Source of the DNA: Escherichia phage SUT_E1620
Sequence record: OQ939939
DNA: 64,000 nt
Strand: one strand, 5' to 3'
The notes under the pieces were generated by a model. The model had not been told where the DNA came from. It worked only from the letters and a program-made list of their open reading frames with translations, and searched no databases. Positions within the stretch are counted from its first letter, which is position 1. Every line of letters begins with the position of its first letter. Shown here in pieces: positions 3,703 through 56,359 of this stretch. Both the position numbers and the translations under genes were made by a program.

Positions 3703-4111
3703 GATTAGTCTCCTCTAGTTCGTCAACGATTTCAAAATGATGAGTTGAGTAGTGTGGTAGTACCACTAACTGACAAAGTCTCTCGAAATTCTCCAGAGTT
3801 TGCATTTCAGAACCATAGTTATAAAGGTTCATCTTAATAGTACCACGGTAGTCTGAGTCGATCACTCCTGCGGTGTTTGCGATCATTAGTTTACGCTTAC
3901 CTAAAGAGCTGCGAGGAACTACCAAACCAAACCAACCTCGCGGAATTTCCACCGCGACACCGGTGTCAATCATAAGGGATTTGCCTGGTGCAATAGCACG
4001 TAAATCTGCCGCAAGGTTAGTACCAAAGAATGCACGCAGATCCATACCTGCGGCATCATCAGAACCAATCCTCGGCATGCAATCTGGATGAGTTAGTTTA
4101 ATTTTAATCAT
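3665..4111 (-). CDS. dut: dUTP pyrophosphatase (dUTPase)
   Basis: 148 aa; dUTPase motifs AGMDLRA, PRSSLG, GVIDSDYRG, RGEGGFGSSG. Confidence 0.9.
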   Translation of the reverse strand: MIKIKLTHPDCMPRIGSDDAAGMDLRAFFGTNLAADLRAIAPGKSLMIDTGVAVEIPRGWFGLVVPRSSLGKRKLMIANTAGVIDSDYRGTIKMNLYNYGSEMQTLENFERLCQLVVLPHYSTHHFEIVDELEETNRGEGGFGSSGSK

Positions 4112-30053: not shown

Positions 30054-31928
30054 TTATTTAGCGCGAATGTCCTGATGTTTCACTCGACCCATAACCTCAT
30101 GTTGTTTACCTGGGTTAAACGGACGAGCACCTGGATTTCCAAGATATCCACAAACTCGACGAGTTACCTCAAGAGTCTCAGGATCATGATTGCCACAAAT
30201 TGGGCATTTGAAACCATCCTCAGAAGCTATAGTTTCACCCAAGAACCCACATTCCCCACAAGAGTCTACTGGAGTATTAATACCGAAGTAATGAACTTTA
30301 CTTGCAGCATAGTTAATAACCCATTCCAGTGCATCAGGGAATCGTTTCATATCCGGTAATTCCACATAGGAAATGCACCCACCAGAAGCAATAGGAGTAA
30401 AGTTAGACTCATAATCAAACTTCACATTTGGAGCAACCTTACGTTCTACATCAAGGTGATGGGAATTAGTGTAATATCCTTTAGCCAGAATATCTTCATG
30501 CTCTGGGAAATACTCACGGTCTAGGCGACAGAAGCGATCACATAGAGATTCAGATGGTGTAGCATACAGACTATACCCTAATTGAGTCTCTTCCTTCTTC
30601 TGATCAGCACGATCACGCATGTATTGTAGCACACGTTGAACGAACTTGATACAAGACTCAGACATTGTATCTACATCTTTACCAAACATGAGTTGCAACA
30701 TTTCGTGGCAGCCAATATATCCTAGGGATACAGAAGCACGCTTGTAGAAATGATCAAATACATATTCATCTGGCCCCAGACGTAATCCAAAGGCTCCTGA
30801 CATATAGAGGATGGGCGCAGCTTTAGCTTGAATGTATTTTAAGCGATCAACCCTCCACTCCAATGCTTTTAACGCGGTATCCACACGCAGCTCAAGCAGA
30901 TCGAAGAATAGATCAATATTTCCTTCCGCTTCGATAGCGATTCGAGGAAGGTTTACGGAAACAACGCCTAAGTTGTTACGACCAGAAGTTTCACCATCTT
31001 CCGCAGCAGCCAGGAATGAACGACAGCCCATAGAGACTTTGTAGTCCCCCGTAACTTCTACAACCTTATCATAACTGATGTAGTCAGGATACATACGTTC
31101 AGCAGTACATTTCATAGCTAACTTCTTGATATCATAGTTAACATCACCAGGTTTCATGTTTACGCCCTCACGCAAAACAAATACCAGTTTAGGGAAGATA
31201 GCTGTACGTTTATTGATACCCAAACCATCCATACGTACTTCTAGTATTGCTTTCTGTACAAGACGTGCTTCCCAAGAAGTTCCTAGACCAAAACCAAAGG
31301 TAATAAACGGACTTTGACCATTAGAGTTGAACATCGTATTGATTTCATACTCCAGGCCCTGACAGGCATCGTAAACTTCTTTCTCAGTCATTTCCGTAGC
31401 CATTACAGATGCTTTAGCTTCATCCTTAGTCCAACGCTTTGCAAACGCATGATTCTTATCATAAGACTTACGAACATAAGGAGCCAATACTTCATCTAAT
31501 CGGTCTACAGAAGTACCCCCATATTGATGTGAACTAACCTGAGTGATAATCTGAGCTGTGATAGCAGCCGCAGTAGTAATAGAGTTTGGTGTACTGATTT
31601 CAGCATTACCAACCTTCATACCATTCTTCAACATATCTTCCAAAGCAACCAGGCAACAGTTAGTCATACCTAACGCAGCGTAATCAGCATCATGGAAGTG
31701 AATATCACCAATCATGTGAGCATTTCGAATCTGGATTGGCATTTCTTCCAGAATCAGATATTTACTCAATTCCCCTGCAAGCATATCCCTTTGTGTAGGG
31801 AAACGTTCTGAGGGCTTATTGGCATTATTAAACAGCAGCTCTTCATCTGCTGAACCTTCGATAATTTCTTTGCAGTTTCGAATCAAGGACTGCATTCCTT
31901 TATACTTTAGTTCTTCATTGCGATTCAT
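30054..31928 (-). CDS. nrdD: Anaerobic ribonucleoside-triphosphate reductase (class III RNR)
   Basis: 624 aa; C-terminal zinc site CGECGF...CPICG and glycyl-radical motif RVCGYLG. Confidence 0.9.
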   Translation of the reverse strand: MNRNEELKYKGMQSLIRNCKEIIEGSADEELLFNNANKPSERFPTQRDMLAGELSKYLILEEMPIQIRNAHMIGDIHFHDADYAALGMTNCCLVALEDMLKNGMKVGNAEISTPNSITTAAAITAQIITQVSSHQYGGTSVDRLDEVLAPYVRKSYDKNHAFAKRWTKDEAKASVMATEMTEKEVYDACQGLEYEINTMFNSNGQSPFITFGFGLGTSWEARLVQKAILEVRMDGLGINKRTAIFPKLVFVLREGVNMKPGDVNYDIKKLAMKCTAERMYPDYISYDKVVEVTGDYKVSMGCRSFLAAAEDGETSGRNNLGVVSVNLPRIAIEAEGNIDLFFDLLELRVDTALKALEWRVDRLKYIQAKAAPILYMSGAFGLRLGPDEYVFDHFYKRASVSLGYIGCHEMLQLMFGKDVDTMSESCIKFVQRVLQYMRDRADQKKEETQLGYSLYATPSESLCDRFCRLDREYFPEHEDILAKGYYTNSHHLDVERKVAPNVKFDYESNFTPIASGGCISYVELPDMKRFPDALEWVINYAASKVHYFGINTPVDSCGECGFLGETIASEDGFKCPICGNHDPETLEVTRRVCGYLGNPGARPFNPGKQHEVMGRVKHQDIRAK

Positions 31929-31949
31929 TATACCCTCCTTCTCTAACTA

Positions 31950-31995
31950 AGACTACTATTATAACTCATTCGAAGGCGGATGTCAACAATATTTT
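31950..31995 (-). promoter_or_regulatory. Sigma70-type promoter for nrdD (minus strand)
   Basis: Reverse complement TTGACA-N17-TATAAT. Confidence 0.6.
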
Positions 31996-32169
31996 ACTAT
32001 AAAGTTCTGTAACATGATCTGAGTCAAAAAATTTTATTTGCCAACCTCTACTAAAAATAGTATAATCACGCATCCGTGTACGCGATATAAAATGATTATC
32101 TAGTACCATACATCTCCCAATAAAAGCAAGCAAATTTTTTATTTAAATGCAATATCATAGGCTTATTTA

Positions 32170-32215
32170 AAATTGTAGTTGCTTTCTCCCGTATATATTG
32201 GTATAATATATTTGT
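32170..32215 (+). promoter_or_regulatory. Sigma70-type early promoter
   Basis: TTGCTT (32179-32184), 17-bp spacer, TATAAT (32202-32207); second TTGCCA-N17-TATAAT at ~32040-32069. Confidence 0.65.
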
Positions 32216-32280
32216 AAGTTGATAAACAAGATCTTTTTGTTGATCCTCTGTTAGCGAAGTACACTATAGGAGTGTTATTT

Positions 32281-33033
32281 ATGGGAAAAGCACGTCAAAA
32301 AAGAGAGAACCGCAATGGTTCAAGAAAGCGTGGCAACAAGTATGAGAGTAACGTAATTCAAGCAGATTTCTCTGGTGATTACGCCAATCCAGTTGCTAAA
32401 TCCCTAGTTGGTAAAAACCGTGAGCAAAAATCATATATCAATATGATCAAGAACAACACAGTGACTGTGGGTATTGGTGAACCAGGTACTGGTAAAACCT
32501 TTATTCCGTCCGTTCTTGCAGCTCAGGAACTCGTAGACATTCACTCAGATATTGAGCAAGTGATCCTCGTGCGTCCGAACGAACCTCTAGGTAAATCTCT
32601 TGGTATGCTCCCAGGTGATCTGGCAGAAAAGCTAGAGCCTTGGTTGGAACCAATAGCCGATGGCATGAAATGGGCAATCGGTGATCACGCCTACAAAGGA
32701 TATGTCGAACGTCAGAAAATTAAATTCCTGGCTATCGAACATGCCCGTGGCCGAACTTTCAACAACTCCTATGTAATTGTCGATGAAGCTCAGAATATCT
32801 CCGTTGAAGCAATGATCTGTCTTTTGACTCGTGTAGGACAAGATTGTCGTTTAATTATCTGTGGAGATATAGCTCAGAAAGACATCAAGGGTGATTCAGG
32901 TCTAGCACTTCTTATGGAAGTCTATGAGAAGTACGAAAACTCTCCTTTCTCTATGATCGAACTGATCGACAACGTTCGCTCACCAGAGTCTAAAGCATTC
33001 TACGATATCTTTAAGGATATGGGGAAGGTGTAA
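32281..33033 (+). CDS. phoH: PhoH-like ATPase
   Basis: Walker A GEPGTGKT, Walker B VIVDEAQ; ATG at 32281 preceded by AGGAG (track ORF uses upstream GTG). Confidence 0.85.
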   Translation: MGKARQKRENRNGSRKRGNKYESNVIQADFSGDYANPVAKSLVGKNREQKSYINMIKNNTVTVGIGEPGTGKTFIPSVLAAQELVDIHSDIEQVILVRPNEPLGKSLGMLPGDLAEKLEPWLEPIADGMKWAIGDHAYKGYVERQKIKFLAIEHARGRTFNNSYVIVDEAQNISVEAMICLLTRVGQDCRLIICGDIAQKDIKGDSGLALLMEVYEKYENSPFSMIELIDNVRSPESKAFYDIFKDMGKV

Positions 33034-33034
33034 T

Positions 33035-33277
33035 ATGGGAAACGTCGTACATCTGCACCGCAAAACTAAGATCCACCGTACTTCATTGAGTGCTGCTAAT
33101 ATGATTACACGTAAGGAAGGGGAAGAAAGTCCTAAGACTACCCTAGCGTGGAAAATTGTAGCCTCTAATCCAAATCGGCCTTTCAACTATAATGAACTGA
33201 GTACTTCTATAGACATTCTTATGGCTAAGGAAATACGACAGAAACTAACTGATATGACCGATAAACTTAAATGGTAA
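33035..33277 (+). CDS. Hypothetical protein (80 aa)
   Basis: ORF overlapping phoH stop; terminator follows. Confidence 0.5.
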   Translation: MGNVVHLHRKTKIHRTSLSAANMITRKEGEESPKTTLAWKIVASNPNRPFNYNELSTSIDILMAKEIRQKLTDMTDKLKW

Positions 33278-33285
33278 GACAGACG

Positions 33286-33318
33286 AGCCTGGGTATGAAA
33301 ATATCCGGGCTCTTTTTA
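33286..33318 (+). terminator. Rho-independent terminator
   Basis: GAGCCTGG...CCGGGCTC hairpin followed by TTTTT. Confidence 0.7.
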
Positions 33319-33400
33319 TCTGTAAAATTGTACTTGCAAAATGACTCAAAACAAAGTAGAATATCTCCTAAATCCTGATAACTACAAAAAGGAAAGCCAA

Positions 33401-35731
33401 ATGAGCCATCGTATAGAAAAAGTAATTAAACGTGACGGTACTGTTCAGGACTTTGCTCCTGAAAAACTCAATGATTGGGCTGCATGGGCATGTAAAGATA
33501 CTGACGTAAGTTGGTCTGCCGTAGTTATGGCTGCCCTGAAAAATCTACCCAAAGGTGTTGTAGACTCCGATACACTCCAAGATGTGTTAATTAAAGCCGC
33601 TGAAGGTCTTATCAAAGACAACCCAGCATATGATACTGTAGCAAAGGAATTACGTCTTGCGCAGATGCGTAAACGCCTATACGATTCCTTTGAACCTCCT
33701 TCTCTGCGTTTCTTCCACGATCATATGGTTCGTGTTGGCGCCTGGGAAGACATGAGTGCATGGATTAGCGATGATCAGTTTGATGCTCTGAATCAAGTTA
33801 TTGATCATGATCGCGATCGTTTATTCACCAGTGGTGGGCTGAAACAGTTCTTCGACAAGTATTCCCGTCGTAATATTGCAACTGGTGAAATTTATGAAAC
33901 CCCGCAGTTTGCTTACATGGGTATGGCAATGGCGATGTTATCTCAACCTAACTGGACAATTCTAGATGCAATCGACCTCTACAATGCAATGTCGCTCCAC
34001 AAAATCAACGTTCCTACGCCGCCACTGGTTGGCCTGCGCTCTAGTGACCGTGGATTTGCTAGTTGCTGTCTCGTGGATTCCACTGACACGCTGGATTCAA
34101 TCGACACAGCCGAGCACATCGTCTTCAAAATGGTCGCAGCCAGAGCGGGAATCGGGTATCATCTTGAAAGCCGATCAATTGCTGATCCGGTGCGAAATGG
34201 GGCATTCCCGCATTCCGGAAAACTGCCATATTATCGACACATTGACCGATCAGTAAAAGCTAACACTCAGCAAACCCGTGGCGGTTCTGCTACTGTGTCT
34301 TATCCATACTTCGATCCTGAAATCATTCAGTTGATGCAGGTTAAGCAGCAACGTGCTACAGACGAGAATAAAATCGATAAGATGGATTACTCTCTGAGCT
34401 TTAACAACCTTCTATTAAAACGTTACCTGAAAAACGAAGATATTACGCTAATGTCCTACTTCTACGCACCAGAAGTTCATGAAGCGTTTTATGGCGAAGA
34501 TGAGGCTAAGTTTGAAGAAATCTACGTGGCAGCGGAGAAACGTGTGGCTTCTCTTACAAAGATCGACCACGAAGGAAAAACAATTCCAGCAGCTCCTAGA
34601 ATCTCTGCAAAAGAAATCCTAGATACTTGGTTACGTATCCGTATGGAAACAGGGCGTATGTATGCTCATCACATTGGTGAATCTAACCGTCATGGTAACT
34701 TCCTTGACCCGATTCGTATGACCAACCTTTGTGTTGAAATTACTCAGCCAACCCGTCCATTCCATCACATTACGGAGCTGTATAAGACCCAAGATCAGTT
34801 AGACGATATGCGTCCAGAAGATATTGGTGAAGTATCTCTGTGTAACTTAGGTGGTGTTGTACTAGGTCGTATGGAATCTCTGGCTGAATGGGAGAAAACT
34901 TGCTACATTCTTCTGAAATTCGTTGATACAATCATCGAGATTCAGGATTACCCATTCCCAACTATGGAGTACACGGCTAAGAAACGTCGTAACGTTGGTA
35001 TTGGTCTGATGAACGCAGCAGGTGCAATGGCAGCAGAAGGTTTGGCTTACGAAGGTGTTGAAGCCCGTAACTGGATTCACCGTGAAGCTGAAAAGCTGTC
35101 CTACTTCCTACATAAAGCCTCTGTACGTCTGGCTAAAGAACAAGGTGCATGTGACTGGTTTAATCGTACTAAGCCTTCGCAAGGAACTCTGGTAATCGAC
35201 ACGTACAAGAAAACTGTTGATGAACTGGTAACTGTAGGTCTAGAAATGGATTGGGAATCTCTGCGTGCAGATATTCTGAAATATGGTATGCGCAACTCTG
35301 TTCTTACTGCTCAGATGCCAGGTGAAAGTTCCTCTGTACTGCTAGGTGTTACTAACTCTATCGAACCGCCCCGTAAGATCGTATCTATCAAGGGTAGTGC
35401 AGTGAATAAAGTAATTGCAATTGCTCCAGGTGCAACTGATTGGGATACATTAATGAGCTATAAACTGGCTTATGATGTAGATCGTATCGAGTGGATCAAA
35501 TGGGTAGCAACCATGCAGAAATTCTTCAGCCAGTCTATCAGTACGAATATGTACTATGACTACACCAAGTTCGAGAATGAAATCATTCCCGGCCCAGTAG
35601 TAGTTCGTGACTTTATGACTGCTGTTAAGTACGGTTGGAAAACTTGGTACTACGCTAACTTCAACACTGAAAATGGTGGTGGAGCTGGTGAAGAAGCAGC
35701 AGGTTGTGCATCAGGTGGTTGTAACCTATAA
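33401..35731 (+). CDS. nrdA: Ribonucleoside-diphosphate reductase large subunit (class Ia)
   Basis: ATP-cone N-terminus (VIKRDGT), active-site NLCVEI, C-terminal Cys pair; start at MSHRIEK with RBS AAGGAAA (track start 33341 lies in promoter). Confidence 0.9.
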   Translation: MSHRIEKVIKRDGTVQDFAPEKLNDWAAWACKDTDVSWSAVVMAALKNLPKGVVDSDTLQDVLIKAAEGLIKDNPAYDTVAKELRLAQMRKRLYDSFEPPSLRFFHDHMVRVGAWEDMSAWISDDQFDALNQVIDHDRDRLFTSGGLKQFFDKYSRRNIATGEIYETPQFAYMGMAMAMLSQPNWTILDAIDLYNAMSLHKINVPTPPLVGLRSSDRGFASCCLVDSTDTLDSIDTAEHIVFKMVAARAGIGYHLESRSIADPVRNGAFPHSGKLPYYRHIDRSVKANTQQTRGGSATVSYPYFDPEIIQLMQVKQQRATDENKIDKMDYSLSFNNLLLKRYLKNEDITLMSYFYAPEVHEAFYGEDEAKFEEIYVAAEKRVASLTKIDHEGKTIPAAPRISAKEILDTWLRIRMETGRMYAHHIGESNRHGNFLDPIRMTNLCVEITQPTRPFHHITELYKTQDQLDDMRPEDIGEVSLCNLGGVVLGRMESLAEWEKTCYILLKFVDTIIEIQDYPFPTMEYTAKKRRNVGIGLMNAAGAMAAEGLAYEGVEARNWIHREAEKLSYFLHKASVRLAKEQGACDWFNRTKPSQGTLVIDTYKKTVDELVTVGLEMDWESLRADILKYGMRNSVLTAQMPGESSSVLLGVTNSIEPPRKIVSIKGSAVNKVIAIAPGATDWDTLMSYKLAYDVDRIEWIKWVATMQKFFSQSISTNMYYDYTKFENEIIPGPVVVRDFMTAVKYGWKTWYYANFNTENGGGAGEEAAGCASGGCNL

Positions 35732-35740
35732 TAAAAACAA

Positions 35741-35768
35741 GGAGATCTTCGGGTCTCCTTTTTTCTTT
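35741..35768 (+). terminator. Rho-independent terminator
   Basis: GGAGATC-TTCG-GGTCTCC hairpin + TTTTTTCT. Confidence 0.8.
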
Positions 35769-35771
35769 GAA

Positions 35772-35815
35772 ATTTTACTTGCTAATCGCTACCAGATTTG
35801 CTATAATATTCCTGA
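35772..35815 (+). promoter_or_regulatory. Sigma70-type early promoter
   Basis: TTGCTA (35779-35784), N18, TATAAT (35803-35808). Confidence 0.65.
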
Positions 35816-35838
35816 AATAGTGAGAAAGAGGAAAATCA

Positions 35839-36984
35839 ATGACTACTTTACTAAACCTGAATTGGGATCATACTAACGCTGACCTTTTCCTGGGCGATTC
35901 TCTTGGTATCGCAGATTACGTTCGTGTAGCACATCCTGAACTTGAGCGTCTAGCACTTCTGCAACGTTCTCAATTTTGGACTGAAACTGAAATCAGTCTG
36001 GAAGCCGATAAGAAACAATGGCCAAACCTTCCGCGTGATATTCAGGAAATTACTCTCCTGAACTTAGCATGGCAGACCCAAACAGATTCTTTCATTAGCC
36101 GTGCTCCTGAAGCAGCTATTATGCCGCTTGTAAGCCGTCCTGAATTGGAGGGTATGCTCAAGCAGTGGAGCTACTTCGAAGATCTGCACAGCCGTGCGTA
36201 TAGTAATATTATTCGTAACGTTCTGACTGATCCAGCAGAATTTATTGATTCTGTAACTAAAAACCAAGAAGCATTTGCACGTATCGCAGATTCTGTTGAA
36301 CTGTTTGATGAATTGTATCTGTTAGGTCAGTATTTCCTTGCAGTACGTAATCATCGTGGTGATAATACTTATCCAGAAACTGAGTTCCCTGAAGTTAAAC
36401 GTGAAACTCAGGCTAAGCTGTTAGATGCTTACTTTGCAATCTACGGTCTGGAAGCAATGCAGTTCTACGCATCCTTTGCATGTACCTTTGCTCTAGCAGA
36501 GAACGATATTCTGCAAGGTATTGCTAAGAACCTGCAATTAATCGCTAAAGATGAAGCTCTACATACTCAAATGTCTAAAGCTATCATCCAGATTATGTTC
36601 CAGCAGTTTGATAAAGATCTGGTAGACGAAGCATTAGCTAAAGCACCAGCACAACTCCTAAAAACTCTGAAAACTGAGATTGAATGGGGCCACTTTATCT
36701 TTAAAGGCCGCAGTCTGATTGGTTTGAACGCAGAATTGCTTGAAGAATACCTTTACTTTGTAGGACGTAACGCATTTATGCACATTGGTGTAGAATGGCC
36801 AAACCACTTACCTGTAATTACTAAGAATCCGATTCCGTGGATCATGAACTGGTTGGATACTACTTCTCTACAACCTGCTCCGCAAGAGATTCAGATTGGT
36901 GCAGCCTACCGCGTAGGTCAAGTCACAGAAACCTCTGCTGATACTCTGAAAGATCTTGGCAACGAATTTGAGGGTATGTTCTAA
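35839..36984 (+). CDS. nrdB: Ribonucleoside-diphosphate reductase small subunit
   Basis: 381 aa; di-iron ligand motifs (ExxH pairs), directly downstream of nrdA. Confidence 0.85.
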   Translation: MTTLLNLNWDHTNADLFLGDSLGIADYVRVAHPELERLALLQRSQFWTETEISLEADKKQWPNLPRDIQEITLLNLAWQTQTDSFISRAPEAAIMPLVSRPELEGMLKQWSYFEDLHSRAYSNIIRNVLTDPAEFIDSVTKNQEAFARIADSVELFDELYLLGQYFLAVRNHRGDNTYPETEFPEVKRETQAKLLDAYFAIYGLEAMQFYASFACTFALAENDILQGIAKNLQLIAKDEALHTQMSKAIIQIMFQQFDKDLVDEALAKAPAQLLKTLKTEIEWGHFIFKGRSLIGLNAELLEEYLYFVGRNAFMHIGVEWPNHLPVITKNPIPWIMNWLDTTSLQPAPQEIQIGAAYRVGQVTETSADTLKDLGNEFEGMF

Positions 36985-37514
36985 TGATAGCAGCAATCTA
37001 TGCAACTGGGCCGAATGGGGAGTTCGGCCTCAATGGTAAACTCCCTTGGGGTTCTTTCAAAGAAGAACTAAATACTTTTTATGCTACTTTGGATTCTCTA
37101 GCACCTGATAATATTATTGTAGGAGCAGGAACTTGGTTAGCCTTCCCTGAGACTCTGCAAAAAAGAATACTAGGAGATTCTGACCTATTTATTTATGCAA
37201 ATAGACCACTACCTAACTCTGTAGGATCAGCTACACGCATAAGCAACATTGGATACCGTCTGCCTGATTTTCTCAAGGAAGAGGTAACTGTAGTATTAGG
37301 GGGAGCAACTCTGCTTCTTGAAATGTATGTCAAAAATCATCTAGATATGGCGTATATCTCTACTATTACTTCAGCCACACCATTATCTGCTGATGTACAT
37401 CTACATCATCATATTACTTTAACTAATTCAATGGCAACTAGAATGGACTATGTGGCAGGACAGAATGCAGATAAAACGCTTTCATTCTTACAAGAATTGG
37501 TGATATTTAAATGA
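36984..37514 (+). CDS. Dihydrofolate reductase
   Basis: 176 aa; N-terminal IAAIxxxGxxG...LPW motif; precedes thymidylate synthase. Confidence 0.75.
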
Positions 37515-38365
37515 AGCAATATATTGAAACTGGAAAACGTATTCTTGAAGAGGGTGTATGGGTAACGAATCCTAGAACAGGGGTTCGTTGCCTAACCATT
37601 ATTGATGCAGACTTTACCTTTAACGTAGGAGCAGGAGAACTGCCGCTAGTAACTACTCGTAAAGCATTTGCTAAACAAGCAATAATGGAAATGATCGGAT
37701 ATCTCCGTGGGTACGACTCAGCAGCACAATTCCGCGCTATTGGTGTTAATACATGGAATGCTAATGCAAATGAAAATATTGCTTGGCTAGGTAATCCATT
37801 CCGTAAAGGCGAGGATGATATGGGACGAGTCTATGGTGTTCAAGGACGTCATTGGACTAATTCTGATGGTATGGTATTTGATCAGTTAGCCAAAGTCTAT
37901 CATAATTTGAAAAGAGGGATTGACGATCGTGGAGAAATTTTAACTTTTTGGAACCCTGGGGAATTTCGTAAAGGATGCCTACGTCCGTGTATGCATACCC
38001 ATCAATTCTCTATTTTAGGTGATACACTATACCTAAACTCTTTCCAGAGGTCTAATGATTTCTTGCTGGGCCAAGTATTTAATATGGTGCAATGCTATGC
38101 ACTTCTAGCTATTATGGCACAGATTACAGGTCTTAAGCCAGGTATTGCTCGTCAAAAGATTATTAATCTTCATATCTATGAAGATCAGTATAATGTTCTG
38201 ATGGAGCACAAGCAATTCGATCGTGAACCTTTTGCATCTCCTACTTTAGAAATCAATCCAAATATTAGAACTTTGGATGATGTATTAACGTGGGTAAGTA
38301 AGGATGATTTTACTGTTCGTGGCTATGAACACCATCCTGCTATTGCATATCCATTTACGGTGTAA
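37511..38365 (+). CDS. thyA: Thymidylate synthase
   Basis: 284 aa; catalytic-Cys region [10 protein letters not shown], conserved N-terminal region. Confidence 0.85.
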
Positions 38366-38368
38366 CAT

Positions 38369-38722
38369 ATGTTAATTATACTATTATTTGTCATATTCTT
38401 TCTAAAACATTTTATGGCCGATTATCCACTCCAAACACCATATATGCTAGGAAAGACGCATAAAATAGGGTGGAAACTTCCATTATTAACCCATTCGCTA
38501 GTACATGCTGGATTAACATTTGCAATTCTAATCCTATTCACATCACCAGGAATGTCTATAGCTTTAGCTATTATGGAATTAATTCTACACTTTATTATAG
38601 ATTATTGGAAAGCACAACGCTGCAAATACGCTATAAGCGATGCTAAGTTTTGGATAGCTTTAGGATTTGATCAGTTACTGCATTATCTGACATACGCCCT
38701 AATAATCTTGATTATAATCTAA
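38369..38722 (+). CDS. Small integral membrane protein (117 aa)
   Basis: Multiple hydrophobic helices; terminator follows. Confidence 0.55.
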   Translation: MLIILLFVIFFLKHFMADYPLQTPYMLGKTHKIGWKLPLLTHSLVHAGLTFAILILFTSPGMSIALAIMELILHFIIDYWKAQRCKYAISDAKFWIALGFDQLLHYLTYALIILIII

Positions 38723-45780: not shown

Positions 45781-46621
45781 TAAATTAGAGAACAGCGAGC
45801 CGATTACGCTGAGTGAGTTTAGTGATTCCTACTAGGATAGCTATTCCACTGAATAGAGTCGGTGAGTTGGAGACTAGTAAGTACTCTGAGAGAGGCTACG
45901 AGCTAACGCTTATTGCTATTGATAGGGAACTGAAAATCTGCGGAAAACTCGGGAGCTGTCCCGAAATCTCGTAAACTCTTCTCTAGTTTATGTTAGTGGG
46001 GTGTCGAACTGACTTATGTGATAACACTGCCGTCCTAGTATAAACGGTAATATCAAACCGTAACTGGTGGAAGATGCAGGTTCGAATCCTGCGGTCGGAA
46101 AGAATCAGATAACTCGGGCTTATACCGGATAAGCATTCGCTGCTGGAGTACATACTATGACGGTTCAGGAGGTACGCCGCCTGATCAGTATTAGGTTAGA
46201 ATCGAAACAGCTAAACCACGAGGAAACCTGACGGCCTCAACCAAACTCGGAACTCGGGATCACTGCCTAGTGTGTGCCCCGTTTAACATAGAGACTAGGC
46301 ATCGAAAATCGGAGGTGTGATTCTACCAGACCGCGTGAATATGAGAGTGGGAAATGCTGGCATGAGAGATGTCACTAATGGTGCCCAATAGTACAGGTAA
46401 TTCGCGATAATTCCTGTTGAGTGGCAGCAGTAGGCTGGGAGTCATGACCTAAGCCTAACCGAGTTCTTCACATACGGAGAACATAACCACAAAGTCACCC
46501 TGACTTAAACTGGAGGATATTGTCTGACGGAAGGGCTGCAGAGCTTAATCTGAGGGGGCTGACCCTACCTACCGTCGGGTATCTTTAAGAGCTTTTATAA
46601 GAGTTCTTAAAAATACCTAAA

Positions 46622-50377: not shown

Positions 50378-50941
50378 ATGTTTAAGACAATACCTGAATT
50401 TCCTATGTATAAAATTTCTGAAACAGGCAAAGTTTACTCATTGCATGTTAACAGAGAAATAGCTACTTATCTTAACAATAAAGGTTATCCATGTGTTAAG
50501 CTAAGTAAAAATGGTGTTGAGCATACTCTTTTAATATCTAGACTATTATGCAGAGTATTTAAAGATTTAGAAGATCTTTATTCCTCTAAAGAAGTAGACC
50601 ATAAAGATAGAAATCCGGCAAATTTTGAACTAAGCAACCTACAAGTTCTTAGTAAAGAAGAGCACGTAATAAAAACATGTTCTGATAACAATATTAGTAG
50701 AAGAACGGATGTTTGTCCTATTTGTGGTGATACTAAGCATAAATCCTCAAAAGCCTGCTTAAAGTGTACTGCTTCGGCTAGGATTAAGAGTAGAGATATT
50801 ACAAAAGAAGATATAGAGTATTGGGTACGAAACTTCTCCTGGGCTAGAGCTTCAAGAGAACTTGGACTATCTGATAATGGACTCCGAAAGAGATATAAGG
50901 CTCTTGGGGGAGACCCTAAAAATATTTGCACCTTTAGCTGA
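50378..50941 (+). CDS. HNH homing endonuclease with C-terminal DNA-binding module
   Basis: HNH core (EVDHKDRNPANFELSNL), Cys cluster, C-terminal LSDNGLRKRYKALGG shared with ORF 52201..52782. Confidence 0.75.
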   Translation: MFKTIPEFPMYKISETGKVYSLHVNREIATYLNNKGYPCVKLSKNGVEHTLLISRLLCRVFKDLEDLYSSKEVDHKDRNPANFELSNLQVLSKEEHVIKTCSDNNISRRTDVCPICGDTKHKSSKACLKCTASARIKSRDITKEDIEYWVRNFSWARASRELGLSDNGLRKRYKALGGDPKNICTFS

Positions 50942-50999
50942 GATGGATTAGCGCTTGCCTGAAGAGCTTGAGAGGTTGGATCGTTACCAACGGGGTGCA
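50928..50999 (+). tRNA. Candidate tRNA-Phe (anticodon GAA) with non-canonical T-loop and weak anticodon stem
   Basis: 7/7 acceptor pairing GCACCTT/GGGGTGC, D-stem GCTG/TAGC, anticodon loop CTGAAGA, T-stem GTTGG/CCAAC with loop ATCGTTA (54/58 swapped), A73-CCA; anticodon stem has two U-U mismatches. Confidence 0.45.
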
Positions 51000-52853: not shown

Positions 52854-52926
52854 ACATCCATAGCTCAATGGTTAGAGCTACCGCCTCTTAAGCGGAGGGT
52901 TCTAGGTTCAAGTCCTAGTGGGTGTA
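52854..52926 (+). tRNA. tRNA-Lys (anticodon CTT)
   Basis: Acceptor ACATCCA/TGGGTGT, D-stem GCTC/GAGC, anticodon loop CTCTTAA, T-loop CTAGGTTCAAGTCCTAG, A73, CCA. Confidence 0.65.
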
Positions 52927-53141
52927 CCAAACATCAGAGCAGCGTGATGTACTGCAAAGACCCAAAGTCCGGGGGGACTTCTTGATTCAAAGGAGCAGGC
53001 ATTAATTATCATTCTAGCGTGGTGGAGAGGGGACACCAGCTTGCCGAGGGTAGAAGCTCGTTCGATTCGAGTGAAAGAATGGTTCTCGTAAATCCGCACA
53101 AGTGATAGCAGGTTCAAGTCCTGCCTAGATTGACTTATTAT

Positions 53142-53212
53142 GCGTTCGTAGTTAAAAGGTATAATTTTTGGTTGCCAACCAGAAGTTGAGGGTTCGATTC
53201 CCTCCGACCGCA
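53142..53212 (+). tRNA. tRNA-Gly (anticodon GCC)
   Basis: Acceptor GCGTTCG/CGACCGC (one mismatch), anticodon stem-loop TTTGG-TTGCCAA-CCAGA, 4-nt variable loop, T-loop GAGGGTTCGATTCCCTC, A73, CCA. Confidence 0.65.
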
Positions 53213-53459
53213 CCAAATTTAGGTTTCTGCTTCCTAGAGAACGGACTCCTAGATAAACAAGGCGATGAGTTTCCGGCCGGTTCTAGTCGCTGAAAATCCT
53301 CCCGACCAGGTAGGTGTAGGTAAACGAAAGTTTACTTATTGAGTAGGTTCCGATAGATCGGCGGATCTATTCTGGCATTTAAGAGAAGTCTCGCAAACTT
53401 CTTTGTCAGCAGAGCGTTTGAAGCGTGAGGTGGCCTACACAATAAGTAAATTTATTAAA

Positions 53460-53505
53460 AACTCATTTGCTATTTCACTTAATTCTCTGTATAATATATC
53501 TTATA
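53460..53505 (+). promoter_or_regulatory. Sigma70-type early promoter upstream of tRNA-Pro
   Basis: TTGCTA (53466-53471), N18, TATAAT (53490-53495). Confidence 0.7.
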
Positions 53506-53527
53506 AAGTGAGTTAACAAAGAATATT

Positions 53528-54900: not shown

Positions 54901-55149
54901 GATGAGGAGAAATCCTCATCAAAGTTCACTAAGGTATTAGCTCGACCTAGGACTGGCTGCCAAAAAGCACAATTGCAATTAGACCCCTAATGGCGGGGGA
55001 TACTTTGCAATAAGTTCTAGATTAGTCCACTAGATTCAGCGGCAACTGAATAGTGTATCGGGTTTGTGAAGAGCGGTTATCCTCTACTGGCTAATGTCTG
55101 AGGGTAATACGCACACCGAGCTAATAGCCTTAGTAAACTTAAAGATTTT

Positions 55150-55646: not shown

Positions 55647-55859
55647 ATGATGAAAACTCCTATAACTGATATCTGGTTAGCTGTTAATACATTAACTAAA
55701 GAGTATGTGTTTATAGAGTATGGTCAGAGGTATGACCAAAAGATGTATAATCTCATACTTCCAGTATCCGCTAATGAAGTTTATGATTTAATCCTGAGAT
55801 CTACGGAAGAGCAAATCGACTTGGTGACGAAAACCGCTTGGAAAGTGGCTGACTTGTGA
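55647..55859 (+). CDS. Hypothetical protein (70 aa); 3' third overlaps tRNA-Ser
   Basis: Six-frame ORF; last ~55 nt coincide with tRNA-Ser(GGA), so coding status uncertain. Confidence 0.4.
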   Translation: MMKTPITDIWLAVNTLTKEYVFIEYGQRYDQKMYNLILPVSANEVYDLILRSTEEQIDLVTKTAWKVADL

Positions 55860-55894
55860 AAGCAGGCTTGAGAGTTCGAATCTCTCTTCTTCCG
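55805..55894 (+). tRNA. tRNA-Ser (anticodon GGA), long variable arm
   Basis: Acceptor GGAAGAG/TTCTTCC, anticodon loop TTGGAAA, ~20-nt variable arm, T-loop GAGAGTTCGAATCTCTC, G73, CCA. Confidence 0.65.
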
Positions 55895-55991: not shown

Positions 55992-56359
55992 CCAAATCTT
56001 GAAGTATGCCGGAATCGGTAGACGGGGCTTCCTAAAGGGCGTAAGGGGAACATCCACTCCTCATAAGATACCCGAAAACGAGGCTGAGATAAATGGTCTA
56101 TCTCGTGAAGGTTCAAGTCCTTCTGCTTCTTGATATTCAATGGCTCAAAGAGTAACGGTGCTATTTGATGCTCTTAGTAAGACTTTCCCGACATGCGTTC
56201 GGGAGTAAGCTGCTAAGGCTAGAGTAGAAGAGTTTCGGAGAGCCGCCACAATTGAAAATTCGTACTCGTCTTGAGCTGCGTGCAATAGGAGATAACTTGA
56301 TTAGTATTCTAGAAAATGCTATTTGAGGATGGTTTCGCTAATCCTGCGAGTTTTCAATT

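What the first reader, a model, noticed from the sequence alone, without database searches (positions are those of the whole stretch)
52927..53141. Orphan tRNA T-arm inside a 215-nt ORF-free spacer between tRNA-Lys and tRNA-Gly
The spacer contains a perfect T-arm (GCAGGTTCAAGTCCTGC, ~53108-53124) and a second T-arm-like hairpin (GCTCGTTCGATTCGAGT, ~53057-53073), but I could not pair either with an acceptor stem. These could be tRNA pseudogenes, split or intron-containing tRNAs, or tRNA-like small RNAs.
Basis: seen in the sequence. Interest (0 to 1): 0.45.

Follow-up and report, generated by a model that had tools for sequence, protein, structure and literature searches.

The report
Known T5 tRNA-like RNA2 gene
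The "orphan" T-arm belongs to a complete, about 123-base tRNA-shaped RNA gene already annotated in phages T5 and BF23 as RNA2 ("tRNA-like stable RNA with unknown functions"), so the finding is real but already known; only its function is still open.

Summary
A perfect T-arm lies at 53108-53124 and a second T-loop hairpin at 53056-53072. Such motifs are about 100 times more frequent in this window than chance predicts, and all are on the + strand.

The T-arm is not orphan. Bases 53011-53017 pair with 53125-53131 as a 7-bp acceptor stem that abuts the T-arm, and 53020-53038 is a D-arm. Window 53010-53135 is 89.6% identical to T5 rna2. The T5 RefSeq record labels rna2 "tRNA-like stable RNA with unknown functions". 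BF23 has the same rna2 followed by tRNA-Gly(GCC), as in this window.

Across T5-like genera and one 164-kb viral contig, the acceptor, D, T and second T-loop stems keep pairing through many compensatory changes. Weaker copies occur in two T4-like Acinetobacter phages and two metagenome contigs. A ~21-nt core is nearly invariant.

There is no working anticodon arm, so this is not a tRNA, a pseudogene in decay, or an intron-containing tRNA.

Most likely it is cut from the tRNA operon transcript by tRNA-processing enzymes and acts as a non-decoding tRNA mimic. Its target is unknown.

The first 80 nt of the spacer (52930-53009) are a separate conserved element, unexplained.

Novelty: already known.

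The parts
53010..53135 (+). RNA2 (rna2) gene: the whole tRNA-like stable RNA, about 123-126 nt
   Evidence: 89.6% identity over 125 nt to T5 rna2. Scores 111.9 bits, E 1e-32, full length, with family model R1. The conserved block starts and ends sharply here while flanks differ between phages.
53011..53017 (+). Acceptor stem, 5' strand (ATTCTAG); C53010 can add a -1:73 pair with G53132
   Evidence: Pairs with 53125-53131 in the MFE fold. All 7 pairs show changes on both sides across homologs; 96% of cells are paired.
53020..53038 (+). D-arm: 5-bp stem TGGTG/CACCA and loop GAGAGGGGA with the conserved GG(G)
   Evidence: 4 of 5 pairs have changes on both sides (UGGUU/AACCA, CGACU/AGUCG, UGCCG/CGGCA, AGCUC/GAGCU). 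The loop GGG is invariant.
53040..53056 (+). 17-nt segment in the position and of the size of an anticodon arm, but degenerate: 3 outer pairs CTT/AAG and the conserved loop motif C(G/U)AGGG
   Evidence: Paired in 83-88% of cells. RNAalifold proposes a different pairing with no covariation, so the fold is unresolved. There is no 5-bp stem, and position 33 is G here.
53056..53072 (+).
   Evidence: The stem covaries (CUCG/CGAG, ACGG/CCGU, CUGG/CCAG, UUGG/CCAA). The loop UUCRAUU is conserved. 97-100% of cells are paired.
53073..53107 (+). Conserved core (GAAAGAATGGTTCTCGTAAATCC, 53073-53095) plus a variable-arm-like stretch; local pairing unresolved
   Evidence: AAGAATGGTTCNCGTAANTCC is identical in T5-like phages, Serratia phage Kamaji, Acinetobacter phages 133 and Acj9, the 164-kb viral contig L034 and metagenome contigs L054 and L060. 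Two alternative small hairpins are possible; neither has covariation.
53108..53124 (+).
   Evidence: Exact in the sequence. 3 of 5 pairs have changes on both sides; 98% of cells are paired.
53125..53135 (+). Acceptor stem 3' strand (CTAGATT, 53125-53131), discriminator G53132, tail ACT; no CCA encoded
   Evidence: Homologs SIY1lw, Klebsiella L044 and L054 encode N73-CCA at exactly this position.
52930..53009 (+). Module A: a separate conserved 80-nt spacer element that holds neither T-arm hairpin and is not part of RNA2
   Evidence: It occurs independently of RNA2, for example between a tRNA-like gene and tRNA-Phe in Klebsiella phage KpGranit. Present in 133 phage records, 125 of them at 95-99% identity. 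Many RNA2-bearing phages, including T5, lack it.

Best explanation
Window 53010-53135 is the gene for RNA2, a tRNA-like stable RNA of T5-type phages.

Shown:
- It is the full-length homolog of the annotated T5 and BF23 rna2.
- It folds with a 7-bp acceptor stem stacked on a canonical T-arm, plus a D-arm with the conserved GG. Between D-arm and T-arm it carries a degenerate 17-nt stretch where the anticodon arm would be, a second T-loop hairpin, and a nearly invariant core.
- It has no promoter of its own in the spacer and sits in a same-strand run of tRNA genes.

Inferred:
- It is co-transcribed with tRNA-Asp, tRNA-Lys and tRNA-Gly.
- RNase P releases its 5' end at 53010/53011, because the acceptor/T-arm/elbow is what that enzyme recognises.
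- RNase P cutting at the 5' end of tRNA-Gly (53142), followed by exonuclease trimming, defines its 3' end. CCA may then be added.
- The product is stable because it looks like a tRNA, but it cannot decode.

Most likely function (inference, about 0.3 confidence for this part): a non-decoding tRNA mimic that binds or titrates a factor recognising the tRNA acceptor/elbow. That factor could be a host tRNA-targeting defence or toxin, or a tRNA-processing or modifying enzyme. The invariant core would be the specific contact site.

The stated confidence refers to identity and architecture, not to function.
For: Identity:
- 89.6% identity over 125 nt to T5 rna2.
- The RefSeq T5 note reads 'tRNA-like stable RNA with unknown functions'.
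- BF23 has rna2 followed by tRNA-Gly(GCC), RNAIV, promoter P13a, tRNA-Pro and tRNA-fMet. ARAGORN and the blastn mapping give the same order in the window.

Structure:
- The MFE fold closes the acceptor stem onto the T-arm.
- On a hand-built alignment of 12 sequences, 92.9% of cells pair, against 32-49% when partners are slid. 19 of 29 pairs have changes on both sides, and 0 of 500 shuffles reach this.
- The picture is the same on a model-made alignment of 25 sequences.
- RNAalifold recovers the acceptor, D, H3 and T stems on its own.

Family reach:
- Model R1 finds sequences that were not in its seed: Acj9 55.9, L060 54.6, phage 133 53.3 and L054 47 bits.
- Genuine tRNAs match the whole model weakly (about 8-21 bits), as expected for a tRNA-shaped frame.

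tRNA-like 3' end: three lineages encode N73-CCA exactly after the acceptor stem.

Operon context:
- The only promoter-like site nearby is the P13a equivalent at 53467-53495, downstream.
- In L054, Kamaji, My1 and the Klebsiella phages the element sits among same-strand tRNA genes.

Selection: the core AAGAATGGTTCNCGTAANTCC is unchanged while all surrounding helices have been rewritten.
Against: - No expression or end-mapping data were available here. The 'stable RNA' status rests on the GenBank annotation only.
- The fold is not more stable than shuffles (z = -0.22), so support comes from covariation, not energy.
- The middle third (53040-53056 and 53073-53107) has no resolved secondary structure.
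- This copy encodes ACT, not CCA, and has a U.U mismatch at acceptor pair 2:71.
- RNA2 is dispensable in the laboratory: T5Mos lacks 30661-38625, which includes rna2, and still grows. The PARIS suppressor mapped to fragment 31885-32870, which excludes rna2 (PMC11464382; coordinates). At least that decoy role is excluded.
- No antisense target for the core exists in the window.
- In L034 the element has no tRNA within 10 kb, so co-processing with tRNAs is not universal.
Confidence: 0.85

Rival explanations
1. A decaying tRNA pseudogene, or two of them: relics of former tRNA genes that persist in the spacer without function.
For: The RNA is clearly tRNA-derived in layout. The 17-nt stretch at 53040-53056 has the size and position of an anticodon arm but only 3 pairs. 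In some homologs its loop reads CUAGGGN, with U33 and a purine at 37. The region is dispensable in laboratory T5.
Against: Four helices are kept by compensatory changes across genera. A non-helical core of about 21 nt is invariant from T5-like to T4-like phages and environmental contigs. The element has sharp, conserved boundaries in more than 400 phage genomes. Decay would not preserve these features.
Confidence: 0.04
2. A functional tRNA interrupted by an intron or an oversized variable arm, which becomes a decoding tRNA after processing.
For: With the score threshold lowered to 80% and long introns allowed, ARAGORN reports tRNA-Pro(AGG) with a 27-nt intron at about 53015-53134. True tRNAs match the RNA2 model weakly over its full length.
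Against: There is no call at default settings, with or without introns. Rfam's tRNA model gives nothing even at E up to 10. The putative anticodon stem has 3 pairs plus G.G and C.A. Position 33 is G in this copy and in T5. The 'anticodon' is not conserved as a triplet with U33 across the family. From general knowledge, bacterial and phage tRNA introns are group I introns of about 200 nt or more. The inserted part is the most conserved part of the RNA, which is unlike an intron.
Confidence: 0.03
3. A cis-acting processing scaffold: the tRNA-like fold exists only to direct RNase P and exonuclease cuts that mature the neighbouring tRNAs, or to insulate them. The excised RNA itself has no function in trans.
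For: It lies in a polycistronic tRNA run with no promoter of its own, and its fold is one that RNase P recognises (established knowledge). Its neighbours change freely between phages.
Against: A pure processing signal needs only an acceptor/T minihelix. It would not need an invariant 21-nt core, a second T-loop hairpin and a D-arm held across families. tRNAs in the same clusters are routinely separated by only 5-10 nt with no such element. L034 carries the element with no tRNA within 10 kb. The T5 annotators describe the RNA as stable.
Confidence: 0.08

Closest known systems
Bacteriophage T5 / BF23 RNA2 (gene rna2; NC_005859 32959-33083, AY692264 32962-33086, AJ604530 5701-5825)
   Same: Full-length homolog: 89.6% identity, the same length, the same predicted helices, and the same gene order as BF23 (rna2 followed by tRNA-Gly GCC, RNAIV, P13a, tRNA-Pro, tRNA-fMet).
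   Different: Allelic differences only. The D stem is UGGUG/CACCA instead of UGGUU/AACCA (compensated). There is one extra D-loop base, a U.U at acceptor pair 2:71, and the tail is ACT instead of ACA. It is preceded by module A instead of the T5 leader.
Bacteriophage T4 species 1 RNA (rnaC), and species 2 RNA (rnaD)
   Same: Stable small RNAs of unknown function encoded at a phage tRNA cluster (PMC9697503). The 3' ~96 nt of rnaC can be drawn with a 7-bp acceptor-like stem (CGGAACG/CGUUUCG) abutting a canonical T-arm and followed by U-ACA, which resembles the G-ACA of T5 RNA2.
   Different: Homology is not demonstrable. rnaC scores 17.2 bits with the RNA2 model, exactly what T4 tRNA-Arg scores. 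It lacks the conserved RNA2 core and second T-loop hairpin, and it has a 43-nt 5' extension.
Canonical tRNA (Rfam RF00005)
   Same: 7-bp acceptor stem stacked on a 5-bp T-stem with a UUCRANY loop, and a D-arm with GG. The element lies in a tRNA operon. Some homologs encode N73-CCA.
   Different: There is no anticodon arm. About 50 extra nt sit between the D-arm and T-arm, including a second T-loop hairpin. Position 8 is not U. ARAGORN and Rfam do not detect it.
tmRNA tRNA-like domain, and processed tRNA mimics such as mascRNA
   Same: A non-decoding RNA that uses an acceptor/T-arm module to enter tRNA-processing pathways. This comparison is by logic from general knowledge, not a test.
   Different: There is no tag reading frame or pseudoknot ring. 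Rfam's tmRNA model matches only the 17-nt T-arm at 7.3 bits against a threshold of 47. There is no sequence relationship.

Membership tests
T5-type RNA2 (rna2) tRNA-like stable RNA | Full-length sequence homology to the annotated T5/BF23 rna2 | tested here: met
   89.6% identity over 125 nt, window 53010-53134. 111.9 bits, E 1e-32, model positions 1-133.
T5-type RNA2 (rna2) tRNA-like stable RNA | Position in the tRNA gene region, same strand, with the same neighbours as in BF23 | tested here: met
   The window order is tRNA-Asp, tRNA-Lys, [module A], RNA2, tRNA-Gly(GCC), RNAIV homolog, P13a-like promoter, tRNA-Pro, tRNA-Met. BF23 has the same order from RNA2 onward.
T5-type RNA2 (rna2) tRNA-like stable RNA | tRNA-like fold (acceptor, D, T) plus the family-specific second T-loop hairpin and conserved core | tested here: met
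   Covariation counts. Independent RNAalifold prediction. The core motif is present at 53075-53095.
T5-type RNA2 (rna2) tRNA-like stable RNA | Accumulates as a discrete stable RNA in infected cells | not testable with these tools
   Only the depositors' annotation says 'stable RNA'. The primary papers were not in the library.
Canonical tRNA | Anticodon arm: 5-bp stem and 7-nt loop with U33 | tested here: not met
   53040-56 has 3 pairs plus G.G and C.A, and the loop is CGAGGGT with G33. No call from ARAGORN or Rfam.
Canonical tRNA | Acceptor stem, T-arm and D-arm with elbow nucleotides (GG in the D loop; UUCRA in the T loop) | tested here: met
   True tRNAs align globally to the RNA2 model at about 8-21 bits.
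Canonical tRNA | 3' N73-CCA end | tested here: inconclusive
   The window encodes G-ACT. SIY1lw (G-CCA), Klebsiella L044 (T-CCA) and L054 (G-CCA) encode CCA at that position. Post-transcriptional CCA addition cannot be tested here.
Intron-containing or split tRNA | Intron in the anticodon loop whose removal restores a standard cloverleaf; in bacteria and phages, a group I intron | tested here: not met
   ARAGORN's intron option finds nothing. Only at 80% of the score threshold does it give a tRNA-Pro(AGG) with a 27-nt 'intron'. No intron family was hit in Rfam. The inserted part is the best-conserved part.
tmRNA | tRNA-like domain plus tag-peptide reading frame and pseudoknots | tested here: not met
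   ARAGORN calls no tmRNA at default settings. Rfam RF00023 matches only 53108-53124, at 7.3 bits against a threshold of 47.
T4 species 1 RNA (rnaC) | Detectable homology beyond generic tRNA-likeness | tested here: not met
   17.2 bits for rnaC, equal to 17.2 bits for T4 tRNA-Arg with the same model.

The most novel reading that the evidence does not exclude
RNA2 may not be a T5 curiosity. It may be one member of a widespread, selectively maintained class of phage tRNA mimics, found in T5-like Demerecviridae of several genera, a 164-kb viral contig and environmental contigs, with truncated copies in T4-like Acinetobacter phages. These RNAs would carry two or three T-loop modules and an invariant ~21-nt core. 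That core would be the binding site for a specific host or phage factor, for example a decoy or inhibitor of a tRNA-elbow- or acceptor-recognising defence nuclease or toxin, or a sponge for a tRNA-processing or modifying enzyme. The evidence here does not exclude this reading and does not test it.
Probability: 0.2. Interest if true: 0.7.

Novelty: already known. Interest (0 to 1): 0.25.

Why it matters
As a gene it is already on record, so it changes nothing about what T5-type genomes are known to contain.

Its practical value is for annotation. Most of the roughly 500 related phage records leave this interval blank or label it "hypothetical protein", and no Rfam family covers it.

The biological question is still open. 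Phage tRNA clusters are now known to counter tRNA-targeting immunity (PMC11464382; PMC11555353, abstract only). Yet the non-decoding tRNA-like RNAs in these clusters, T5 RNA2 and T4 species 1 and 2, still have no assigned function (for T4; for T5).

The covariation-supported fold and the invariant core found here give concrete handles for mutagenesis and pull-downs.

Tried and rejected
1. Standard tRNA, or tRNA with an intron. ARAGORN at default and with introns found nothing. Relaxed thresholds gave only implausible calls.

2. Any Rfam family. At E up to 10 there was nothing except the flanking tRNAs, tRNA look-alike noise and a 7.3-bit tmRNA T-arm fragment.

3. Alternative pairing of the 5' strand CAUUCU with the internal AGAAUG (53076-81). 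This would make a 'first' tRNA ending after hairpin H3. It is rejected because Serratia phage Kamaji keeps AGAAUG while its acceptor strand is GGGUACU.

4. A pseudoknot between the loop CGAGGG and UUCUCG in the core. It is not supported: G-to-U in the loop (L004, Klebsiella) and U-to-C in the core (L034) are uncompensated.

5. Homology with T4 rnaC, suggested by a shared UCGAUUCGAG..GAAA..CGUAAG string. The model score is no better than for a tRNA.

6. An antisense target of the core within the 64-kb window. None was found at up to 3 mismatches.

7. A promoter inside module A driving RNA2. The best candidate (TTGATT, 16 nt, AATTAT; my own reading of the sequence, not a tool result) matches 8 of 12 positions, is not reported by the scan, and by my reading is not conserved in KpGranit.

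8. Protein coding. There are only 27-28-aa ORFs on the + strand, and the 102-aa - strand ORF runs through two tRNAs.

9. Guilt by association. A YqeY-like protein lies 200 nt upstream in L034 only. It was not found near the element in the window, phage 133 or Acj9.

10. Primary literature on RNA2 (Wang 2005; Glukhov 2018). Neither paper is held in the library. No paper in the library combines 'tRNA-like' with T5-like phages.

Full report
**Setting**

The window is the tRNA gene region of a T5-like phage. ARAGORN finds 27 tRNA genes, all on the + strand between 46.6 and 58.0 kb, and Rfam agrees. The flagged interval lies between tRNA-Lys(CTT), 52854-52929, and tRNA-Gly(GCC), 53142-53215. The closest records are Epseptimavirus-type phages; Escherichia phage SpoonbillGilly and Salmonella phage 1-29 are 99.5% identical over the spacer.

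**Checking the observation**

- The perfect T-arm GCAGG-TTCAAGT-CCTGC is at 53108-53124 as stated.
- The second hairpin GCTCG-TTCGATT-CGAGT is at 53056-53072, one base off the stated position.
- Neither ARAGORN nor Rfam calls a tRNA in the spacer. This holds with Rfam at E up to 10 and with ARAGORN's intron option.
- The + strand has only 27-28-aa ORFs. A 102-aa ORF on the - strand runs through both flanking tRNAs and is not credible.
- A scan for a 5-bp stem closing a TTCRANN loop gives 27 motifs on the + strand and none on the - strand. Shuffles give 0.24 for both strands together.

The T-arm is not orphan.

- ATTCTAG (53011-53017) is complementary to CTAGATT (53125-53131), which follows the T-stem with no gap, as in a tRNA. 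There is one U.U mismatch, and C53010:G53132 can extend the stem. The minimum-free-energy fold of 53005-53141 makes exactly this closure.
- Two bases after the 5' strand comes a D-arm: TGGTG / GAGAGGGGA / CACCA, 53020-53038.
- The fold as a whole is no more stable than shuffled sequence (z = -0.22). Energy alone proves nothing; the evidence has to come from comparison with homologs.

**Identity**

- The T5 record AY692264 annotates six misc_RNA genes in its tRNA region. A blastn of these against the window places T5 rna2 (125 nt) on 53010-53134 at 89.6% identity.
- The RefSeq T5 record describes rna2 as 'tRNA-like stable RNA with unknown functions'.
- The BF23 tRNA-region record describes it as 'tRNA-like RNA with unknown functions'. 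It is followed there by tRNA-Gly(GCC), RNAIV, promoter P13a, tRNA-Pro and tRNA-fMet. The window has the same order.
- The finding is therefore the known RNA2 gene. Most of the roughly 500 related phage records leave it unannotated or call it a hypothetical protein.

**The spacer is modular**

- blastn splits the 215 nt into two independent blocks.
- RNA2 has sharp conserved limits (CATTCTAG ... CTAGAWTGAC). Its flanks differ between phages: a tRNA CCA end, the T5-type leader or module A upstream; tRNA-Gly, RNAIV or other sequence downstream.
- Module A (52930-53009) carries neither T-arm hairpin and occurs without RNA2 next to it. In Klebsiella phage KpGranit it lies between a tRNA-like gene and tRNA-Phe.

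**Structure from comparison**

I collected divergent homologs:
- Pectobacterium phage My1
- Salmonella phage SIY1lw, Klebsiella Sugarlandvirus phages and Serratia phage Kamaji
- a 164-kb uncultivated viral contig, L034
- two metagenome contigs, L054 and L060
- the T4-like Acinetobacter phages 133 and Acj9

The acceptor stem has been completely rewritten several times: AUUCUAG/CUAGAAU, UAUGGGG/UCCCGUA, GGGUACU/GGUAUCC, GACUUUG/CAAAGUC. The D, H3 and T stems have been rewritten as well.

| Test | Result |
|---|---|
| Hand-built structural alignment, 12 sequences | 92.9% of cells pair, against 32-49% when partners are slid |
| Same alignment | 19 of 29 pairs change on both sides; no shuffle of 500 reaches any measure |
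| Same alignment, by helix | Pairs changing on both sides: acceptor 7/7, D 4/5, H3 3/5, T 3/5 |
| Model-made alignment, 25 sequences | Same picture |
| RNAalifold | Recovers the same four helices, without my structure as input (on the same hand-built alignment) |

Caveat: my alignment was made with the structure in mind, and the model alignment leans towards it.

The middle third is not settled. The 17-nt stretch 53040-53056 sits where an anticodon arm would and has its exact size, but it has only three outer pairs. Small hairpins around 53079-53107 have two competing versions, neither with covariation.

What is conserved in the middle third is sequence. C(G/U)AGGG sits in the first loop. AAGAATGGTTCNCGTAANTCC is identical from T5 to Acj9, L054 and L060 while every helix around it has changed.

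**Family model**

A covariance model built from the 12 sequences gives these scores:

| Sequence | Bits |
|---|---|
| Window copy | 111.9 |
| Acj9 (not in seed) | 55.9 |
| L060 (not in seed) | 54.6 |
| Phage 133 (not in seed) | 53.3 |
| L054 (not in seed) | 47.0 |
| Ordinary tRNAs, matching the whole model | about 8-21 |

- The weak full-length tRNA matches are an independent sign that the frame is tRNA-shaped.
- The window holds one copy only.
- In the two Acinetobacter phages the 5' third is degenerate: there is no D-arm and the acceptor pairing is poor.

**Not a tRNA, pseudogene or intron-bearing tRNA**

- There is no 5-bp anticodon stem, and position 33 is G in this copy.
- ARAGORN gives a call only when its threshold is cut to 80%. 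That call is a tRNA-Pro(AGG) with a 27-nt intron, which does not fit phage tRNA introns and would treat the best-conserved part as the intron.
- Compensatory maintenance of four helices, together with an invariant unpaired core, argues against a decaying relic.

**How it most likely works**

Shown:
- The tRNA-like fold.
- The placement in a same-strand tRNA run.
- The absence of a promoter-like site in the spacer. The nearest is the P13a equivalent at 53467-53495, downstream.
- Three lineages (SIY1lw, Klebsiella L044, L054) encode N73-CCA at exactly the expected place.

Inferred from established knowledge of tRNA maturation:
- The RNA is co-transcribed with its neighbours.
- RNase P cuts at 53010/53011.
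- The 3' end is made by RNase P cutting at tRNA-Gly (53142) plus exonucleolytic trimming. CCA may be added, as for T4 tRNAs that lack an encoded CCA.
- The product is a stable tRNA look-alike that cannot decode.

Its role in trans is unknown. My best guess, at about 0.3, is a tRNA mimic that binds or titrates a factor recognising the acceptor/elbow, with the invariant core as the specific contact.

What can be excluded:
- RNA2 is not essential in the laboratory. T5Mos lacks 30661-38625, which includes rna2 at 32959-33083.
- RNA2 is not the PARIS suppressor, which maps to fragment 31885-32870 (PMC11464382; coordinates).

**Comparison with T4**

T4 also encodes two stable RNAs of unknown function at its tRNA cluster, rnaC and rnaD (PMC9697503). 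The model alignment shows that the 3' ~96 nt of rnaC can form a 7-bp acceptor-like stem (CGGAACG/CGUUUCG) on a canonical T-arm, followed by U-ACA, which resembles the G-ACA of T5 RNA2. But rnaC scores 17.2 bits, the same as T4 tRNA-Arg. I therefore treat it as an analogue, not a demonstrated homolog.

**Module A**

This 80-nt block is present in 133 phage records, 125 of them at 95-99% identity. They include Klebsiella Sugarlandvirus phages whose RNA2 is only about 75% identical to the T5-like type. The one diverged copy, phage Eos, keeps the hairpin 52939-42/52952-55 through two changes on both sides (GCAG/CUGC becomes CGAG/CUCG) and breaks the long-range pairing of the MFE fold. It has no Rfam match and no convincing promoter or terminator. 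I leave it unexplained.

**Verdict**

The object is already known and annotated in T5 and BF23. What this analysis adds:
- covariation support for the fold;
- the modular make-up of the spacer;
- the wider distribution of the family;
- the invariant core.

Function remains open.

Noticed in passing
window 52930-53009: Module A is an 80-nt spacer element present in 133 phage records, 125 of them at 95-99% identity. It sits between different neighbours in Epseptimavirus-type and Klebsiella Sugarlandvirus phages. The diverged copy in phage Eos keeps a small hairpin (52939-42/52952-55) by two compensatory changes. It has no Rfam match and no convincing promoter or terminator.
   Followed up: partly
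window 53216-53527, especially 53343-53441: The next spacer holds the homolog of T5 RNAIV, annotated 'stable RNA with unknown functions' (89% identity). It is followed by the P13a-like promoter at 53467-53495. The stretch 53216-53342 between tRNA-Gly and RNAIV is unannotated in BF23 too.
   Followed up: partly
window 54935-55069 and 55998-56358: Homologs of the other T5 misc_RNA genes are present: RNA2H (partial, 78.5%), RNA1 (55998-56141, 82%, with a T-arm at 56107-56123), RNAI (56142-56248, 91%) and RNAIII (56253-56358, 97%).
   Followed up: partly
window 55805-55893: A probable class II tRNA was missed by ARAGORN and by Rfam at gathering score. It looks Ser-like, with anticodon loop UUGGAAA and a T-arm at 55870-55886, just upstream of the called tRNA-Ser(TGA). 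It matches the tRNA-Sec model at 25.4 bits, E 0.013.
   Followed up: partly
window 46029-46100 and 50928-50999: Rfam reports two weak tRNA matches (29.3 and 33.4 bits, just above the gathering score) that ARAGORN does not call.
   Followed up: no
L046 (Klebsiella phage KpGranit) 416-503: Another uncalled tRNA-like gene. It has a 7-bp acceptor stem GGGACUU/AAGUUCC followed by A-CCA and a normal-looking D-arm, but an aberrant arm where the T-arm should be. It lies directly upstream of module A.
   Followed up: no
L003 (phage T4) 2907-3002, - strand: The 3' ~96 nt of T4 species 1 RNA (rnaC) can be drawn as a tRNA-like frame: acceptor-like stem CGGAACG/CGUUUCG, T-arm CCGGG/CCCGG, and tail U-ACA.
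   Followed up: partly
L034 3005-3508 (164-kb uncultivated viral contig): A 167-aa YqeY-like protein (Pfam PF09424, E 1e-15; PHROG 'tRNA amidotransferase') is encoded about 200 nt upstream of the RNA2-like gene (3708-3831). That gene has no tRNA within 10 kb. No such protein was found near RNA2 in the window, phage 133 or Acj9.
   Followed up: partly
L013 (Shigella phage SHSML-45), 3' end of RNA2: In this phage RNA2 ends ...GAATGAC and continues directly with CAAACAATT plus tRNA-fMet, the same junction that follows tRNA-Pro (GGAGAC|CAAACAATT) in T5. This looks like a deletion by recombination between the two GAC ends that removed RNAIV through tRNA-Pro.
   Followed up: no
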